Assembly (NCBI GenBank): GCA_964016885.1
Contig: OZ024742.1
Location: 253,518,001-253,582,000 of the forward strand
Length of the DNA stretch: 64,000 bases
Direction of reading: 5' to 3'
Origin: Eledone cirrhosa
Taxonomy: Eukaryota
The notes beneath the pieces are model-generated. The model saw only the letters and a program-made list of their open reading frames with translations, was not told the DNA's origin and ran no database searches. The first letter of the stretch is position 1. The number at the start of each line of letters is the position of its first letter. Position numbers and translations under genes: made by a program. This document shows positions 19,420 through 31,177 of the stretch, piece after piece.

Positions 19420-19900
19420 GAGTCAATTAACAATTACAAATAAGCAATGCTATATTTACCGTAATTGATTGCATCACATTAAATATTAGTCTGTACTGTA
19501 ATACTGTACATTTTCACAACAATCTGTCCACTAGTAAAGATTCTATAAGTATTTGAATTAACAAACCTCATTGAAACACATTAGCAAGATATTCTTGAAC
19601 TGTACGAAAGAACACTGTGATTGCATCACGTTAAATATTAAAACCTTTACTCTTATACTGCACCTTTTCACAACTATCTGACCACTAATAAAATTCTATA
19701 AGTATTCGAATTAACCAACCCCATGCAACAGCATTAACAAGATATTTTTTAAACTGTACAAAAAAGCACTATGACTGCATTACATTAAATACTGAAGTCT
19801 TTACTCTAATTCTGCAAATTTTCCTGATGATCTGTCCACTAATAAAGATACTATAAATATTTGAATTAAGAAACAGATTTTTAGATGTTTTCTGTCAAAT
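19420..19900. repeat. Degenerate ~120-bp tandem repeat (about 4 units)
   Basis: Recurrent ATCTGTCCACTAATAAAGATTCTATAAGTATTTGAATTAA and GATTGCATCACATTAAATATT. Confidence 0.8.
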
Positions 19901-20375
19901 TATTACAGGATGTTAAGAGTTAATTCGAAATACAGTCTAACGAGGGTGACTAACTCGTTTGAACTTCAAAGGAGAAAAACTAGACATAAATTTCTAAATA
20001 TCAGAAAAAAATCACTTTAACACCTGGTACGAAGAGAATATTGATTAACCTCCCCCAGATTCCAAAAGAAAATGGAAAATAAATGATCATAAGAAATATA
20101 AAACGAGAGACTTCACTCATTAAGAAATGTGCCTTCTATCCATAAAGGTATCTCGGAATGTTCACACGTGGGAAAAATGTCAATTAAAACTGAAAGAAAA
20201 ATTCTGATCAAATCATTCATTCATATATTTTCCCTTTTATCCTTCAGTCTCATTATCCTTTCAGTTTCTCTTTATCACACACACACACACAGAAGATGTT
20301 CATAGATACATATACGGATTTAATTCAATATATCATATGTCTCTCTCTCTCTTTTTCCATATATATAAATATATA

Positions 20376-20484
20376 TAGAATAGAATGAAACGAAATTTCA
20401 TTTCTCACTCTTAGTACGGCGCTTACTTAAATGTAAGTATGTATGTATACGTACATACATATATGTATACAAACGTACAGTAGC

Positions 20485-20545
<61 letters not shown>

Positions 20546-21000
20546 CAGGCACACATATATATATATATATATACATACAGGCACACATATATATATGCAC
20601 GTATCAGTTTACCGAACATTTATTATAATGATTTTATTATAAACATTTATTAGCCTGATTTACGCCGTACAGTGTTTAGGCAACCACGTCACCTTTTTGT
20701 TCAACACTGACACAGGAACGATGTACTAGTTTCAAGCTTGTTAGCTATCGTCAGCACCGTATACCTTTCTGCCAGATGGTTGAACGTCCGAAAGTATATA
20801 CTTACCTTATGAAAATTAACGGCTGAGCAGCCTAATTTGCATATCGAGTGAGTTCAGTCGGCCAGCCGCATCGAAAACGATAAATAGAATAGAATGAAAT
20901 GAAATTTCATTTCTCACTCTTAGTACGGCACTTACTTAAATGTAAGTATGTATGTATACGTACATACATATATGTATACAGACGTACAGTAGCATGTATA
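20376..21000 (-). mobile_element. Retrozyme-like HHR tandem unit (family A), about 1.2 units
   Basis: Period about 509 bp (GAAATTTCATTTCTCAC at 20392 and 20901); non-coding; contains an HHR. Confidence 0.8.
20718..20760 (-). ncRNA. Type I hammerhead ribozyme (family A)
   Basis: ACGGUG-CUGACGA-UAGCU AACA AGCUU-GAAA-CUAG-UA-CAUCGU. Confidence 0.9.
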
Positions 21001-21096
21001 TATATATATATTCGTTTGTTTACAAACGAACAAAGCGAACATTATGATAAATGTTCGGTAAACTGATACGTGCATATATATGTGTGTGCCTGTATG

Positions 21097-21163
<67 letters not shown>

Positions 21164-21395
21164 GCTACTGTAGTCTGTATACATATATGTATGTACGTAT
21201 ACATACATACTTACATTTAAGTAAGTGCCGTACTAAGAGTGAGAAATGAAATTTCGTTTCATTCTATTCCATTTATCGTTTTCGGTGCGCCTGGCCGACT
21301 GAACTCACTCGATATGCAAATTAGGCTGCTCAGCCGTTAATTTTCATAAGGAAAGTATATACTTTCGGACGTTCAACCATCTGGCAGAAAGGTAT

Positions 21396-21438
21396 ACGGT
21401 GCTGACGATAGCTAACAAGCTTGAAACTAGTACATCGT
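21396..21438 (+). ncRNA. Type I hammerhead ribozyme (family A)
   Basis: Stem I ACGGUG/CAUCGU, core CUGACGA, stem II AGCU/AGCU, GAAA, palindromic ACUAGU, predicted cleavage after GUA at 21432. Confidence 0.92.
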
Positions 21439-21568
21439 TCTTGTGTCAGTGTTGAACAAAAAGGTGACGTGGTTGCCTAAACACTGTACGGCGTAAATCA
21501 GGCTGTTCGTTTGTTTACAAACGAACAAAGCGAACATTATAATAAACGTTCGGTAAACTGATACGTGC

Positions 21569-21599
<31 letters not shown>

Positions 21600-21600
21600 C

Positions 21601-21650
<50 letters not shown>

Positions 21651-21797
21651 CTTAAAATACTGGAGCGTGTTGGAGATAAACACCCTCTTCGTATTATAGA
21701 AATGACAGTAAAAGGTATAGCTCAATGTAATTAAACAGAGCCGAAGAATTATGAAAATAAAACAGAGAAGCCTTCAATACATCAAAAGTCTTTATTA

Positions 21798-21835
21798 GCC
21801 AACAATATTTCGTCCTATTAAGGACTCATCAGGGC
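21798..21835 (-). ncRNA. Type I hammerhead ribozyme (family B)
   Basis: GCC-CUGAUGA-GUCCU UAAU AGGAC-GAAA-UAUUG-UU-GGC. Confidence 0.88.
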
Positions 21836-23821
21836 AATCAAAACTACAAGAAGCACTATCGGCCAATACAACCCGAAAACTCCGAAGAATATGGAGTGTA
21901 CATACACTAAAGTATTGGAAGATTATGGGTAAAAATATATAATAAAAATCACTAAAGAGGTGGATAACATTTTGAACCATATTACAAATATAGTCCAAAG
22001 CAAAACACTAGAGCTAAACAAAGGTGGTTATATAGAGCGGGAATTATAGTACTATATGTAATACAATATAATATAATATAATATACTTGTAACAATATTA
22101 AAATTAAAATTAAAAGCACAATATACATATGTATATATATACACACACGTACGCACATATACATATACATCAATACACATTTCCATCATTAACAGCACAA
22201 ATTAAACCTTATTAAGAGTTTAAATATAAATAAGCATAATAGGAATAAAAATAAAAATAATATGTATATCTAATATACAGTATAACATGAAGTAATGAAA
22301 TGATTAAAAGTAACACATATAATATATAATAAACTATATAATTATATAATATATAATATAATATAATAGATAATCTCCGGTTAATTTACACAAACAATAT
22401 AGATGTGACAATAACACTATAATAATAATATAATAATATATAATATATAATGGCATGTAAGTTAACAAATCAATTCATATAGAGTTACAGAGCAGGTGAG
22501 AAAAAAAAATATAAATTGTACAATACCCAAAATTATGATGGTACAAAAATATAAATATCTTACAGGATATATAAAATTTACCATATCATAATAGTACATA
22601 AAATCATCAGTAAGTAATAAGGATCAATAGTACATTTACAAAGAGTTGAATAACAACTTCAATATAAAATAATGAACATAATATAATATATAATTACTTA
22701 TATTTACAAGGTTGGTAAACAGACACATATGTGAATGAGTGAATAAGAGCCAGACAGAAAATACTATGCACAGTAGTTTTAATAAATAAATAAATAAAAT
22801 CGACCGGAAATCAAAAAACAAAAACAAAAGTATTTACTTAGGTCTCACATGCAGTTAAGTAAAAACTTATGAAACAACCCCGATAAATGACTAGAAAACC
22901 CTATTTGATAAATTAATATTGAAAATATTTAAAATACTTAATAAGGCAATACAATATTAGCTATGGTTTAAGTAATCAAAATCCCTAAACATTAATATAT
23001 CACTATAAATATATATAGAAAGGAATGAAATATTCTACTATCATTTACATAACGATATCATAATTAAGGGTAAATTTTATATATCCTGTAAGATATTTAT
23101 ATTTTTGTACCATCATAATTTTGGGTATTGTACAATTTATATTTTTTTTCTCACCTGCTCTGTAACTCTATATGAATTGATTTGTTAACTTACATGCCAT
23201 TATATATTATATATTATTATATTATTATTATAGTGTTATTGTGACATCTATATTGTTTGTGTAAATTAACCGGAGATTATCTATTATATTATATTATATA
23301 TTATATAATTATATAGTTTATTATATATTATATGTGTTACTTTTAATCATTTCATTACTTCATGTTATACTGTATATTAGATATACATATTATTTTTATT
23401 TTTATTCCTATTATGCTTATTTATATTTAAACTCTTAATAAGGTTTAATTTGTGCTGTTAATGATGGAAATGTGTATTGATGTATATGTATATGTGCGTA
23501 CGTATGTGTATATATATACATATGTATATTGTGCCTTTTAATTTTAATTTTAATTTTAATATTGTTACAATTATATTATATTATATTATATTGTATTACA
23601 TATAGTACTATAATTCCCGCTCTATATAACCACCTTTGTTTAGCTCTAGTGTTTTGCTTTGGACTATATTTGTAATATGGTTCAAAATGTTATCCACCTC
23701 CTTAGTGATTTTTATTATATATTTTTACCCATAATCTTCCAATACTTTAGTGTATGTACACTCCATATTCTTCGGAGTTTTCGGCTTGTATTGGCCGATA
23801 GTGCTTCTTGTAGTTTTGATT

Positions 23822-23859
23822 GCCCTGATGAGTCCTTAATAGGACGAAACATTGTTGGC
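23822..23859 (+). ncRNA. Type I hammerhead ribozyme (family B)
   Basis: GCC-CUGAUGA-GUCCU UAAU AGGAC-GAAA-CAUUG-UU-GGC; stem I extendable via AGUUUUGAUU/AAUAAAGACU. Confidence 0.9.
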
Positions 23860-23904
23860 TAATAAAGACTTTTGATGTATTGAAGGCTTCTTTGTTTTAT
23901 TTTC

Positions 23905-23965
<61 letters not shown>

Positions 23966-24197
23966 GCTACTGTACGTCTGTATACATATATGTATGTACA
24001 TATACATACATACTTACATTTAAGTAAGTGCCGTACTAAGAGTGAGAAATGAAATTTCGTTTCATTCTATTCCATTTATCGTTTTCGGTGCGCCTGGCTG
24101 ACTGAACTCACTCGATATGCAAATCAGGCTGCTCAGCCGTTAATTTTCATAAGGAAATATATACTTTCGGACGTTCAACCATCTGGCAGAAAGGTAT

Positions 24198-24240
24198 ACG
24201 GTGCTGACGATAGCTAACAAGCTTGAAACTAGTACATCGT
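24198..24240 (+). ncRNA. Type I hammerhead ribozyme (family A)
   Basis: Identical to 21396-21438. Confidence 0.92.
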
Positions 24241-24393
24241 TCCTGTGTCAGTGTTGAACAAAAAGGTGACGTGGTTGCCTAAACACTGTACGGCGTAAAT
24301 CAGGCTGTTCGTTTGTTTACAAACGAACAAAGCGAACATTATAATAAATGTTCGGTAACCTGATACGTGCATATATATATATATGTGTGCCTG

Positions 24394-24434
<41 letters not shown>

Positions 24435-24594
24435 GCTACTGTACGTCTGTATACATATATGTATGTACGTATACATACATACTTAAATATATATAAATAT
24501 ATATATATAAATATATATAAATATATATAAATATATATAAATATTTATAAATATATATATATATATAAACAGATATAAATATATATAAATATAA

Positions 24595-25472
24595 ATGGAA
24601 TAGAATGAAACGAAATTTCATTTCTCACTCTTAGTACGGCACTTACTTAAATGTAAGTATGTATGTATACGTACATACATATATGTATACAGACGTAGAG
24701 TAGTATGTATATATATACATACATGCACACATATATATATATGCACGTATCGGTTTACCGAACATTTATTATAATGCTCGGTTTGTTTGTTTGTAAACAA
24801 ACAAACAGCCCGAATCACGCCGTACAGTGTTTAGGCAACCACGTCACCTTTTTGTTCAACACTGACACAGGAATGATGTACTAGTTTCAAGCTTATTAGC
24901 TATCGTCAGCATCGTATACCTTCCTGCCAGATGGTTGAACGTCTGAAAGCATATACTTTCCTTATGTATATTAATGGCTGAGCAGCCTAATTTGCATATC
25001 GAGTGAGTTCAGTCGGCCGGGCACACCGAAAACGACAAATGGAATAGAATGAAACGAAATTCCATTTCTCACTCTTAGTACGGCATTTACTTAAATGTAA
25101 GTATGTATGTATGTATAGGTACATACATATATGTATACAGACGTACAGTAGTATGTATATATATACATACATGCACACATATATATATGCACGTATCGGT
25201 TTACCGAACATTTATTATAATTGTTTCTACTTTTGGCACAAGGCCAGCAATTACCCAGTGCATTACTGGTACTTTATTTTATCGACCCCGTAAGGATGAA
25301 AGGCAAAGTCAACCTCGGCGGGATTTGAACTCAGATCGTTAAGGGACGTAACTATGCTGGCCCTACCGATACTGCCAATCCACCGAACATTTATTATAAT
25401 GCTCGGTTTGTTTGTTTGTAAACAAACAAGTTTTCGGTGTGCCCGGCTGACTGAACTCACTCGATATGCAAA
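24595..25472 (-). mobile_element. Family A retrozyme-like array, more diverged, interrupted by a SINE at ~25220-25383
   Basis: Same unit in reverse orientation with several substitutions. Confidence 0.8.
24873..24915 (-). ncRNA. Type I hammerhead ribozyme (family A variant)
   Basis: ACGAUG-CUGACGA-UAGCU AAUA AGCUU-GAAA-CUAG-UA-CAUCAU; core unchanged. Confidence 0.88.
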
Positions 25473-25529
25473 TTACTTTTTGAAAATAAATATAAAAACA
25501 AAAGACACACAACTCCAGGGTCTTCAGCT

Positions 25530-26094: not shown

Positions 26095-26483
26095 CCTCTA
26101 ACAAATTTAAAAGTGAAGTTACAACAACCTAATGTAGCGGGATGTTTGTGCAGGAACTGGTTGACATGCTCACTAGACAGAGCCTATAAATCAGATGCTA
26201 TAATCTATGGGTTAACAGTTAAGTCAACTAATCCCGACCAGAACACCAACCTTAATTGATATGTTGGGCTCATGGAACGGCAGTTCAAAGAGCATTATAA
26301 TATCAATACAGTGTCATTTCATTACTGGGATGAAAGAAATTCAACAAAATTCTCCAGTTATACCTGGAAATTGAAAGAAAGCTCCATAGATTATAACATC
26401 AACTGGAAGATTGCAAAAAAGAGGAGACTCTTTATTAACGGAAACAAGAAATGTGGATTCTGCTATGCAGAAAATGGCTCAGC
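26095..26483 (+). pseudogene. PLE GIY-YIG fragment (Naiad-like)
   Basis: YVGLMERQFKEHYN..NSTKFSSYTWKLKE..INWKI..KKCGFCYAE; homologous to 29333-29800. Confidence 0.7.
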
Positions 26484-27050
26484 TTGAAGAGGGTACATAA
26501 GAAATTAAATTGCATACATATACAACAGATGCAGTGAGACTTCCAGTGGAGCCACCCACATTAGAAAGTTCTGCAGGGTGTTAGAAACCCAGCATCTCTC
26601 TACACACCACGGCAGAACCCCTAATCTAGAAGAAGGACCAACCCAGATAATCTTTGCTTCTTCAGAATTCCACACTTTAGCGAAGAAACAATCAATGCCA
26701 TAGACAGGGATGTTGGGAAGGAAGGCGTTAATATCAGACTGGTCCACTTAATACATTCCCTGCAGAGATGCCGATCTAAAACAACAGCTTCTCAGCGAAC
26801 AGAACACATGCACCTGAAGCAATTGCCCCATCCACAGCACCAATTATTGCCTGTATACCTATGTAGTGTTCAGGTTGGAAGTGCAGCCAATTCCATATTG
26901 CCAACCCTATTCGACCCCTGCACGACAGAATAAAAGAACTTGCTACCACTAACTCCTCATCATTCTACAAACACATGAAGAAATGCAAAAACAAGGATAG
27001 GAAAATAACCACCACCATCTTGGCTACTGAATGCAGTAAAGGCACCCTGA
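26484..27050 (+). pseudogene. Degraded PLE thumb/GIY-YIG fragment of the 2273-4802 family
   Basis: CSETSSGATH..VLET; CPIH..IRPLHDRIKE..SSFYKHMKKC..TILATE. Confidence 0.75.
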
Positions 27051-28619: not shown

Positions 28620-29340
28620 AAAAATATAATTGTGGTATAAAATAAGTGTTGAAAGTATGTGATAAAGGCCCAGGGTGGTTAAAATAAGAGCGAAAGTTCA
28701 GGAGATGATGAAGTCAATAAGTAAATAATATATAAGTGTAAAATAAAATAAAGTAAAATAAAATAAGTGTTGAATATGTAAAAACGTTCAGGATGTTTAA
28801 AATAAGTGGTTAAAATTAGAGAGAGTGTTCAAGGTAAAAGTCGATGAAGAAATGGATAAAATAGGTGTAATATAAAATAAAAGTGTTGACAGTATGTGGT
28901 AAAGGGTGGTTAAAAAAGGGAGAGTGTTCAGGAAATGAAGAAGTCAATAAGTGAATAATATAAGTGTAAAATAAAATAAAATAAGATAATATAAGTGTTG
29001 AATATGTACGAATGGTGTTAAAAATAAGAGAAAGTGTTCGTGGTAAAATAATAGGTGTTCAAGGTAAAAGTAAAGGAAAAGAAGAAATGAATAAAATAGG
29101 TGTAATATAAAATAGGAGCATAAAATAAAATAAAATAAAATAAAATAAAATAAAATAAATTAATAAGTGTTGAAAATGTAAAAAAAAGGGTGTTTAAAAT
29201 AAGGGAGAGTGTTTGTGGTAAAATAAAAGAGTGTGTTCAAGGTAAAAGTAAAGGAAATGAATAAAATAGGTGTAATATAAAATAAGGGCATAATATAAGA
29301 TAAGTGTTGAATGTGTGATAATGAGAGAGTGTTCAAGGTG
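28620..29340. repeat. Degenerate purine-rich tandem repeat in the probable PLE 3' UTR
   Basis: Recurrent AAATAAGTGTTGAA, GTGTTCAAGGTAAAAG, AATAGGTGTAATATAAAATA. Confidence 0.75.
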
Positions 29341-31177
29341 GATAAGTGTTCAAAATTGTGTTTTGATGCCGAGAAAAGAGATGCGTTCTTATATGTGGAC
29401 AAATTTTAAATATTTCAGAATTAGAGTTAAGACAGGTTTTGGAAGATTTCAGATTTTGTAGAATTCTATATTTTTCTGTTACAAACAAGGTAAACCTTCT
29501 TGTACTTTTAACATATTCTTTTGACTGGTCTAAAATAGACCAATCAATTTCATATGGGATCCCATGCTCTTTCATCTCCCACACTCTATTTGACAGCGCC
29601 GTGGTTTTCTTTTTATCCTGGTGACGAAAGGAAGCGACGTGTGCATAGTATCTTTTTTTAAGGTATCCTGGGTCATGCCCACATAACGTTCTCCGGTAGA
29701 AGGTTGGTTGGTATGAATAGGTCTTATAATTGCCTCATATACAACGGATATAATGTTGCATTTGTCTTGCAAAGGACATTCACCTGGATTTCTGCACGAA
29801 CATCCTGGGATTCCTCTGTCAGTTTTTCCGGTGATGATTTTTGATTTTATGGAAGGAGTGCAAGAATAGCTAATCTTGACACAGTTTACATTACAAATTT
29901 TGTTATATTTATGGTGATGGGTGAAATGATTATCTACTAATTCTAGGGAATTTCTACCTACATTAGTTTTGAGTGCTAAAGAGAAGGATGGTGTGAACCA
30001 GATTATTTTTATTTTCCTATTATTATGTTTAGAGGGCTTAGAAATATATTTAATTTGTTTAGTGAATCCGCTATTTTTAAGGGCCTTATTATAGCAAGGA
30101 GCTGCTTTATTAAATATTTCTTCAGAAGAAGAGAGGGTAGATATCCTGCAGCTAATATTAGGGATGAGGTTTTTAAATACTATGGGAGGATGGCATGACT
30201 GTTTATATATTTTAGATTCTCATTAGGTTTATGGTAAGGTTTAAATGAAGCAGTGAGTAAGTCAAGATTTATATCGAGGAAATTTACGTTGGTGAGATTA
30301 GTATCTATAGTAATTTTAAGGTTTAGGTCAGAGAAAATTTTAATTAAATCTTTACGAAAAGTGTTGAGGTCCTTGCCATTGGTGGTATGAGAAACTGCTA
30401 GTCCGTCGTCTCGATATAACCCGATAGTATGATTTGGGAGTTTTTCCTTTATTGTGTGTAGAAAGAACAAGCCGACCAAATTACACACATTTGCACTGTC
30501 AAAGGAACCCATAGAGGCAACAAAAGGGTTTTCTGGCTTTTATTTTTTTTACCCAAGTTTCATTTTTGGCAAAAAGTAGCGTTTTCTTGGCATGTAAAAT
30601 TACTTCCTCTTCTAAATCGGATATATTAGTGTAATTTTTAACGAATTCTAATGCTTTGGCTAATAAGGATTGAGTTATAGAGGGGTAGAAATCTATTATA
30701 TCGAATTGAGTGAATCTAGATCTATTTTTTTCAGGTATATTATTAACCCATGAAACTACTGAAGATGTATTAAGCTATTGATGAAGTTTTGTTTTACTTC
30801 TTATTTTAATATTATATTTCTTAAGATTTTTTCACTGGCAAGTCCAATTTCTCATTTAGCAGGGTTAATGAGTCTACAACTAGGTCTGTTATTGAAATCT
30901 ATTTTGTGGTCTTTCAGTGTAATATAGGCTTTACGTTTAGTTAGGCTTTCAGTTCTATTGTCTATTTTTAATTTACTTGCAATGTCTTTATCTTCATAAT
31001 TTATATTATTAAAGGTGTTATTTTTTGTTTTTTCGATATTTGGTAGTGATATTATCTGTTAAAAGTTGGTTATATAAATCGTTATTTACTTCATATAAGC
31101 TTTTAGTCTTATCAGAAAATACGAACTTATTATTAGAAATATCATTAGCAAGTTTAGTTTGAAAATTATTATTGTAG
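29333..31177 (-). pseudogene. Decayed PLE ORF (RT + GIY-YIG), Naiad-like
   Basis: CRLINPAK, QFDIIDFYPSIT, MGSFDSANVCNLVGLF, GLYRDDGL, IIWFTPSF, KISYSC, linker CSCRNPGECPLQDKC, VYEA..YVGMT. Confidence 0.88.

What the first reader, a model, noticed from the sequence alone, without database searches (positions are those of the whole stretch)
20376..25472. Retrozyme-like tandem RNA unit (~500 nt) with an intact hammerhead ribozyme, four copies
Seen: a non-coding unit repeated head-to-tail on both strands carries a complete type I HHR (CUGACGA core, GAAA, palindromic ACUAGU stem III, GUA site). Stem I extends further (AGG/CCU, CUGGCA/UGUCAG, GUUCAAC/GUUGAAC). The rest of the unit is rich in hairpins (GAAAGUAUAUACUUUC, ACUUAC/GUAAGU, GUUCGUUUGU/ACAAACGAAC) and long-range pairs (GCCGUAC/GUACGGC, UUAGGC/GCCUAA). 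The most diverged copy keeps the core and changes a stem I G-U pair to A-U. Established: metazoan non-LTR retrozymes are tandem units with minimal type I HHRs that give circular RNAs and are thought to be mobilised by PLEs. Inference: this is a cephalopod retrozyme family, unusual in its length and in carrying variable (TA)n tracts inside the monomer.
Basis: partly seen in the sequence, partly recalled or inferred. Interest (0 to 1): 0.9.

Follow-up and report, generated by a model that had tools for sequence, protein, structure and literature searches.

The report
Hammerhead retrozyme copied by Penelope enzymes
These are four copies of a roughly 500-base non-coding repeat, present about 28,000 times in this animal genome, that carries a predicted self-cutting RNA motif and is likely pasted into TA microsatellites by a Penelope-type jumping gene's enzyme; it belongs to a known kind of element, and its ends and two hybrid copies point to a likely partner enzyme.

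Summary
The four hammerhead cores are real (20754-, 21402+, 24204+, 24909-), but they are not four head-to-tail units. They form two back-to-back insertions, and a 2.26-kb Penelope-like (PLE) fragment splits the only former dimer, so this locus cannot release a ~500-nt circle. Genome-wide there are 28,293 exact cores, many in tandem arrays, plus 467-nt and 310-nt relatives. The circular fold is conserved, with compensatory changes at 24 of 115 pairs. Copies have variable 5' ends and three fixed 3' ends, mostly in (TA)n. The two arms never both use the long site (0 of 78; 13 expected), which is the PLE 'tail' footprint. Two of 166 insertions are hybrids with one young Neptune-type family and keep the long/short rule, pointing to a likely mobiliser. 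No coding parent was found. Cleavage, circles and expression are untested. The hammerhead has U-U instead of G10.1-C11.1 and a 2-bp palindromic helix III, so it likely cuts weakly and as a dimer. Verdict: a new member of the known non-LTR retrozymes.

The parts
20371..21010 (-). Insertion 1, left arm: one full unit (copy A) plus 137 nt, ending at the long 3' site A in (TA)n
20718..20760 (-). Hammerhead A (core starts 20754; predicted cut after 20724)
21011..21647 (+). Insertion 1, right arm, first part: 5'-truncated unit (unit 367-508) plus full copy B (21140-21647), head-to-head with A
21210..21227 (+). Hairpin holding the short 3'-end site B (about 21219), a predicted RT start site
21268..21277 (+). 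Long 3'-end site A (about 21276) in a single-stranded U-rich linker, a predicted RT start site
   Evidence: loose ends at 21276 run into (TA)n
21314..21321 (+). Octamer-like ATGCAAAT, kept in the 467-nt sister family; role unknown
   Evidence: U2 promoter comparison negative
21371..21457 (+). Hammerhead B with extended stem I (core 21402-21432, U-U at 10.1-11.1, ACUAGU helix III, GUA site; predicted cut after 21432)
21565..21647 (+). Internal (TA)n-rich tract: tip of a long hairpin arm, third 3'-end class, and target of the nested PLE
21648..23908 (.). Nested two-armed 3' fragment of a young Neptune/Nematis-type PLE family ('NepA'): main arm 23059->21648 (-) with a 100-nt tail (21648-21747), inverted arm 23069->23908 (+) without the tail
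23819..23863 (+). The PLE's own type I hammerhead (G-C base, GUU site); mirror copy 21794-21838 (-)
   Evidence: RF00163, 29.1 and 26 bits, below the cut-off of 34
23909..24485 (+). Insertion 1, right arm, second part: copy C (98.5% identical to B) plus about 76 nt, ending near site B in degenerate (TA)n
24198..24240 (+). Hammerhead C (core 24204-24234; predicted cut after 24234)
24591..25429 (-). Insertion 2, main arm: about 1.5 units (copy D, 93.7% identical to B and C), ending at site A
24873..24915 (-). Hammerhead D (core starts 24909; predicted cut after 24879); one stem I pair broken
25222..25381 (-). SINE-like repeat (B-box match) inserted in the D arm with a 19-bp target duplication (25203-25221 / 25382-25400)
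25430..25475 (+). Insertion 2, short inverted arm (unit 139-184)

Best explanation
These are copies of a protein-free, roughly 420-540-base repeat with a hammerhead motif, present in about 28,000 copies, that is likely copied from RNA into TA microsatellites by the enzyme of a Neptune-type Penelope-like element, probably from a circle made by predicted dimer-dependent self-cutting. Steps: (1) A tandem array is transcribed; the promoter is unknown (inferred). (2) Two hammerheads pair through the self-complementary ACUAGU and cut after GUA, and the monomer is ligated into a branched circle (inferred from the motif, its covariation and published retrozymes). (3) The PLE protein nicks (TA)n and starts reverse transcription inside the RNA: one arm at the long site A, the other at site B or the internal (UA)n tip (the ends are shown; priming is inferred). 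(4) Copying can run more than once round the unit and stops at random, and the two cDNA arms join head-to-head (the layout is shown). (5) The enzyme occasionally switches between this RNA and the PLE's own RNA (two hybrids are shown; the switch is inferred). The window holds two such insertions; the larger was later split by a PLE fragment landing in its internal TA tract.
For: Copy number: 28,293 exact cores against 1 control match. Arrays: tandem arrays with monomers of 422-541 nt. Ends: 127 of 140 outer 3' ends in 95 insertions fall at three sites (A 57, B 35, TA tract 35), and 95 of 103 in 71 further insertions. 46 of 57 A ends and 32 of 35 B ends run into alternating TA; 5' ends are scattered. 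Pairing: A/A occurs in 0 of 47 two-armed insertions (6.4 expected, P=3e-5), in 0 of 31 in a new set (6.6 expected), and in 0 of 78 pooled (13.0 expected). Coding PLEs in this genome show the same long/short ends: family 'NepD' in 6 of 6 two-armed copies with both ends seen; NepA in 3 inverted arms plus the window's. Published match: the tail at one end only (PMC8557442) and two internal RT start sites that define the tail (PMC11167929). Hybrids: L176 pairs retrozyme short site B with the NepD long end; L179/L293 pairs the NepD short end with retrozyme site A. Both have direct ORF-retrozyme junctions and no remainder on the far side. RNA structure: circular folds z -6.2 to -12.0 in 9 of 9 monomers, with the hammerhead strand 15-62 kcal/mol more stable than its antisense; 24 of 115 pairs change on both sides, against at most 7 in the slid controls. 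The 467-nt sister, found by homology away from the ribozyme and about 63% identical, keeps the core and changes stems I and II in pairs. In genomic contigs of run X2, none of the 15 fixed core and helix III positions has a variant at 3% or more; only N7 and H17 vary. Helix III is a perfect palindrome in this family, both relatives and NepD. Mobilisers with long open frames exist (up to 1,081 aa).
Against: No RNA evidence of any kind. The U-U base and 2-bp helix III predict a weak ribozyme, and the monomer's best fold buries CUG against UAG. The two-molecule fold did not give the active dimer. In PMC11167929 hammerhead cleavage was not needed for insertion and no reads ended at the cut; in the 2026 preprint 8 of 9 tested dimers did not cleave. 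Units within one insertion were closer to each other than to the nearest other insertion in only 8 of 29 cases, so single-circle copying is not general in my sample. Variants shared by all units of an insertion were A>G in 6 of 15, against 19 of 185 single-unit variants (P=0.005), but T>C was 3 of 15, and 'private' refers to about 95 of thousands of insertions. Hybrids number 2 clear cases in 166, both in the 92%-identical CTGATGA subfamily rather than the window's; the 71 new insertions gave no clear case. The covariation structure was derived from the same 9 sequences, which were picked by the core motif. The invariance is modest against about 12% variable sites.
Confidence: 0.65

Rival explanations
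1. The same PLE passenger, but the template is an uncut linear tandem transcript; the hammerhead is weak or needs protein help, and circles play no part in copying.
For: Unprocessed RNA was the main substrate of an anole PLE (PMC11167929). Attenuating features occur in both families: U-U here, a GUU site in the sister. Many arrays hold heterogeneous units. Passing the cut site twice or more (31 of 145 runs) fits a multimer as well as a circle.
Against: The core and the dimer palindrome are kept across three families, with compensated stems, so cleavage is selected at some step. A few insertions repeat private variants in every unit and in both arms: two variants in 10 of 10 units at C1:9.97 Mb, and one in 7 of 7 at C1:5.54 Mb.
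Confidence: 0.22
2. The unit is only the pseudo-LTR of a coding PLE that I did not sample.
For: It shows the full PLE insertion footprint. PLE pLTRs carry type I hammerheads (PMC4209133), and Xenopus retrozymes resemble pLTRs. Only four PLE families were examined, out of 58,795 first-look RT candidates.
Against: In 166 insertions the sequence upstream of a unit is another unit, a head-to-head junction or unrelated flank; no shared ORF-bearing flank was seen in the 30 loci compared all against all. The junctions with PLE ORFs fall at different places in both partners. No similarity beyond TA-rich stretches to the NepA element or the NepB UTR. NepD ends in a different hammerhead.
Confidence: 0.07
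3. A satellite or rolling-circle DNA repeat that spreads at DNA level, with the hammerhead as a relic.
For: Long arrays exist, some with higher-order patterns (C14:25.12-25.13 Mb). Hairpins and microsatellites also occur in non-autonomous Helitron-like elements (recalled).
Against: Fixed 3' ends with random 5' truncation, strand-specific folding with G-U/A-U exchanges, the long/short pairing shared with coding PLEs, and hybrids with PLE sequence. Local unequal exchange may still lengthen arrays after insertion.
Confidence: 0.03

Closest known systems
Metazoan non-LTR retrozymes (coral, mussel, axolotl Rtz331/Rtz353; PMC7229834, passages and sections 14 and 17 read; bioRxiv 10.64898/2026.07.22.740005, parts 1-3 of 5 read)
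   Same: Non-coding tandem unit with one type I hammerhead each, low GC (35-38%), highly paired circular fold, thousands of copies, coexisting with PLEs. A short helix III (Amex1) and a U-U at the base of helix II (Amex2) are each described in axolotl.
   Different: Both weakening features occur in one ribozyme. The monomer (422-541 nt) has a (UA)n-tipped arm. The parts I read do not describe two-armed insertions, fixed long/short 3' ends, TA targeting or hybrids with a PLE. Cleavage and circles are shown there and untested here.
EN+ Penelope-like elements and their pLTR hammerheads (PMC4209133, parts 1-2 of 4; PMC8557442, passages; PMC11167929, parts 1-2 of 4)
   Same: 5' truncation, partial tandems, an inverted 5'-truncated arm, a tail at one end only, microsatellite targets, and a palindromic dimer-type helix III.
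   Different: No ORF. The unit alone is repeated, the tail is about 57 nt, and there is a third end class inside the internal TA tract. It lacks the G10.1-C11.1 pair typical of PLE hammerheads.
Rfam RF00163 Hammerhead_1
   Same: Type I order of stems, and all conserved core nucleotides.
   Different: No match even at E<=10, so Rfam-based screens would miss this family.

Membership tests
Non-LTR retrozyme | Tandem units, each with a type I hammerhead | tested here: met
   Met for the family: arrays with consecutive cores 422-541 nt apart.
Non-LTR retrozyme ('active' locus, 2026 preprint) | [quoted passage not shown] | tested here: not met
   In this window B and C are 2,802 nt apart around a nested PLE; A and D are single.
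Non-LTR retrozyme | No protein coding, no LTR architecture | tested here: met
   Frames over the units are low-complexity or at most 92 aa; no shared coding flank in 30 loci.
Non-LTR retrozyme | GC below 45%; highly self-paired circular fold | tested here: met
   GC 0.35-0.38, 64-71% paired, z -6.2 to -12.0 in 9 of 9 monomers.
Non-LTR retrozyme | Short monomer | tested here: inconclusive
   422-541 nt: above the 170-400 nt of PMC7229834, inside the 51-972 bp of the 2026 preprint.
Non-LTR retrozyme | Self-cleavage in vitro | not testable with these tools
   Needs transcription assays.
Non-LTR retrozyme | Expressed as linear and circular monomers | not testable with these tools
   No RNA run was available to lay.
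Type I hammerhead | Core CUGANGA, GAAA, UH with helices I and II | tested here: met
   4 of 4 window copies; compensated helices I and II across families.
Type I hammerhead | G10.1-C11.1 pair | tested here: not met
   U-U here and in the 310-nt family; G-C in the 467-nt sister. U-U is tolerated in HHR_Amex2 (PMC7229834).
Type I hammerhead (dimer type) | Short palindromic helix III | tested here: met
   ACUAGU; self-duplex -4.8 kcal/mol; other families use other palindromes.
Rfam RF00163 | Score at or above 34 bits | tested here: not met
   No hit.
Autonomous PLE (unit as pLTR) | RT + GIY-YIG ORF between the repeats | tested here: not met
   None in 166 insertions; only scattered junctions with PLE ORF pieces. 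PLE census incomplete.
PLE-mobilised element | Partial tandem plus inverted arm, tail at one end, microsatellite target | tested here: met
Neptune clade (nested and partner elements) | RT followed by a Cys-rich linker and C-terminal GIY-YIG; placement by RT phylogeny | tested here: inconclusive
   YRDD, CxC..CPLxGxC and IVY..YIG motifs present; atlas look-alikes carry GIY-YIG and HTH_animal; no Pfam hit. No tree was built, and Nematis shares the linker.

The most novel reading that the evidence does not exclude
The retrozyme RNA mimics the two internal start sites of a Neptune-type PLE. One dimeric PLE enzyme primes one 'long' and one 'short' site per insertion, can load the retrozyme circle and its own mRNA together, and swaps between them. 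The hybrid insertions would then be direct genomic proof of which enzyme moves an animal retrozyme, and a ready assay for how PLE two-armed insertions form.
Probability: 0.35. Interest if true: 0.7.

Novelty: new member of a known kind. Interest (0 to 1): 0.5.

Why it matters
The papers read propose that PLEs mobilise animal retrozymes, from co-occurrence and pLTR similarity, but do not show it. This family gives a quantified footprint (0 of 78 long/long pairs), exact candidate start sites, and a named young partner family with hybrids. Together these make the question testable with the published in vitro PLE assay. The family also has about 28,000 hammerheads that Rfam's model misses. The element kind itself is known, and this scan has reported the family before.

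Tried and rejected
Rfam at the gathering score gave no hit in 64 kb. At E<=10 it gave mostly miRNA-family matches on the TA hairpins, judged chance, and RF00163 only on the nested PLE.

Sequencing runs: no RNA holder listed; no evidence either way. Run X4 (organism B) laid 0 records, which is uninformative.

snRNA-type promoter idea (octamer; the newt satellite 2 parallel is recalled, and the search found no supporting paper): no octamer within 1.5 kb upstream of 4 U2 loci examined, and no PSE-region match better than shuffles for 2 of them. No sense-strand A or B box. The promoter stays unknown.

NepB as parent or partner: it lies near several insertions, but it shares no sequence with the unit and had no hammerhead in the loci scanned; put down to shared TA targets. 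L023 (head-to-head with an older NepB piece) and L087 (a retrozyme carried antisense inside a 'NepC' copy) were not counted as hybrids. L381 is a possible third hybrid with an unresolved far end and was not counted.

Rolling-circle test by within-insertion homogeneity: inconclusive. Pfam found nothing in 6 PLE-like proteins. The two-molecule fold did not return the active dimer; the energy model has no terms for the core. One search failed on an index error and was rerun.

Rows dropped: 18 of 113 clusters below 76% identity (sister family), and 1 of 48 two-armed insertions cut by a locus edge before the permutation test.
Full report
Observation. A scan of both strands finds four identical-type cores, CTGACGA-N14-GAAACTAGTA, at 20754(-), 21402(+), 24204(+) and 24909(-), and two copies of an unrelated hammerhead at 23825(+) and 21832(-). 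Self-comparison shows the layout. Taking unit 1 as window 21140, insertion 1 has a left arm 21010->20371 (copy A plus 137 nt) and a right arm from 21011. The right arm runs through B, is interrupted in its internal TA tract by 21648-23908, continues through C and ends near 24485. Insertion 2 has a main arm 25429->24591 (copy D, interrupted by a SINE-like repeat with a 19-bp duplication) and a 46-nt inverted arm, 25430-25475. B and C are 98.5% identical and D is 93.7% identical to both. Before the nested insertion B and C were a dimer with a 541-nt period (2,802 minus 2,261); now no two cores are adjacent.

The ribozyme. All core nucleotides are present, helix I has 6 bp plus a long irregular extension, helix II has 4 bp on a U-U base, and helix III is the palindrome ACUAGU with a GUA site. 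The monomer's best fold collapses the core; ACUAGU can pair with a second copy (-4.8 kcal/mol), which is the dimer arrangement described for metazoan type I motifs in PMC4209133 (parts 1-2 of 4). My two-molecule fold did not return the active dimer. Rfam does not recognise the motif. A U-U base is described for an axolotl retrozyme that cleaved 22% as monomer and better as dimer (PMC7229834, passages).

The family. Exact cores number 15,827 (CTGACGA) and 12,466 (CTGATGA), against 1 and 0 for the reversed patterns. Best hits are 98-99% identical, so part of the family is young. Subfamilies differ by 3-20%. A 467-nt sister (9,487 pattern matches) was found through homology away from the ribozyme and is about 63% identical; a 310-nt relative has 14,189 cores. 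Nine natural monomers, taken from cut site to cut site, fold as circles at z -6.2 to -12.0 with one topology, always better on the hammerhead strand. On their alignment 24 of 115 pairs change on both sides, against 12.5 in shuffles and at most 7 in slid controls; the structure came from the same sequences, so this is partly circular. In genomic contigs of run X2, 38 variants reach 3%, and within the core only N7 and H17 vary. The (TA)n tract forms the tip of a hairpin arm and accounts for much of the length spread.

How it inserts. In 95 insertions (113 clusters, 18 sister-family clusters dropped), 49 have opposed arms. Of 140 outer 3' ends, 57 lie at site A (about 21276), 35 at site B (about 21219), 35 in the internal TA tract and 13 elsewhere; most A and B ends run into (TA)n; 5' ends are scattered. 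The sister families end at two sites too, homologous to A and B in the 467-nt family. Both arms never end at A: 0 of 47 (6.4 expected), 0 of 31 in 71 newly fetched insertions, and 0 of 78 pooled (13.0 expected). Craig et al. describe this for PLEs as partial tandems, an inverted arm, a tail at one end and a TA bias (PMC8557442, passages). Frangieh et al. showed in vitro that the tail lies between two internal RT start sites (PMC11167929, parts 1-2 of 4). 31 of 145 runs pass the cut site at least twice, so the template cannot be a cut linear monomer copied once.

Who moves it. The nested fragment belongs to a young coding family (NepA) with open frames up to 1,081 aa and RT, Cys-linker and GIY-YIG motifs. 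I call these families Neptune-type from the motifs; no tree was built. NepA shares no sequence with the unit. Searching insertion flanks for such ORFs gave two clear hybrids with another young family, NepD, whose best copies are 98-99% identical. In L176 the left arm starts at retrozyme site B in (TA)n, goes once round and joins the NepD ORF directly; the right arm is NepD's tail-bearing end. In L179/L293 the left arm starts at NepD's short end, joins the retrozyme directly and goes about 1.7 rounds; the right arm starts at retrozyme site A. Neither has a remainder on the far side, as a later nested insertion would leave. NepD's own two-armed copies are short plus tail in 6 of 6 with both ends seen, so both hybrids keep the long/short rule across two RNAs. 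This is 2 of 166 insertions, both in the CTGATGA subfamily (96-99% to its representative, 91% to window copy B). Insertion with a large target deletion, or copying of an earlier hybrid locus, is not excluded. L023, L087 and L381 were examined and not counted.

Circle or multimer. Undecided. Units of one insertion were closer to each other than to the nearest other insertion in 8 of 29 cases. Some insertions repeat private variants in all units and both arms, with an A>G excess (6 of 15 against 19 of 185, P=0.005, but T>C 3 of 15). No RNA run could be laid.

Comparison and novelty. It works like, and at family level meets the testable criteria of, a non-LTR retrozyme (PMC7229834; 2026 preprint); the window locus itself fails the preprint's 'active' criterion. 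Paper searches for retrozyme+hammerhead+octopus (3 papers, 2 listed), hammerhead ribozyme+cephalopod (4 papers, 2 listed) and retrozyme+Neptune+template switch (0 papers) listed no description of this family or of hybrids; the library is incomplete and supplements were not seen. The scan's own notes already report the 422-nt subfamily, both relatives and the two-site footprint; I had reached the footprint before opening them. A sequence look-up and a word look-up for hybrids returned nothing.

Verdict. A real, abundant, structured retrozyme family, and a new member of a known kind. Interest 0.5, resting on the quantified PLE footprint and the hybrids, which make the mobilisation question testable.

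Noticed in passing
window 21648-23908; L051: Two-armed 3' fragment of a young Neptune-type PLE family with its own hammerhead and a 100-nt tail on one arm; many genomic copies keep long open frames.
   Followed up: yes
L055:1-1560; L104; L113-L142: 467-nt sister retrozyme (9,487 pattern matches) with a G-C helix II base but a GUU site, the same fold and homologous end sites.
   Followed up: partly
L048:2234-2964; L070; L193-L212: 310-nt family (14,189 cores) with a U-U base and an ACGCGT palindrome; very regular arrays; weak, same-order motif similarity to the 467-nt family.
   Followed up: partly
window 25222-25381; L185 (G000:C1:42.275 Mb): The same SINE-like family is inserted at about the same loop (unit 394-411) in two independent copies of the retrozyme; five more copies lie in the window.
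   Followed up: partly
window 26119-26487 (+) and 29333-31164 (-): Decayed RT/GIY-YIG pieces of other Neptune-type PLEs flank the finding.
   Followed up: no
L087 / L264 (G000:C1:18.487-18.491 Mb): A two-armed PLE insertion that seems to carry an antisense retrozyme copy as a passenger in both arms.
   Followed up: partly
L301:2716-2780; L293: NepD ends in a type I hammerhead-like motif with a long helix II and an 8-nt palindromic helix III, missed by my short-stem scans.
   Followed up: partly
L059, L119, L120, L026, L044: Further hammerhead-like motifs with other helix III sequences, probably more families.
   Followed up: no
G000:C14:25116000-25134400 (L052, L053): An 18-kb composite array of about 45 units in several orientations, with heterogeneous units and higher-order patterns; a possible source locus.
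   Followed up: partly
G000:C3:307.35-307.45 Mb: A tandem array of U2 snRNA genes with a period of about 2.2 kb.
   Followed up: no
window 19466-19874: A 154-bp tandem repeat (2.7 copies) upstream of the finding.
   Followed up: no
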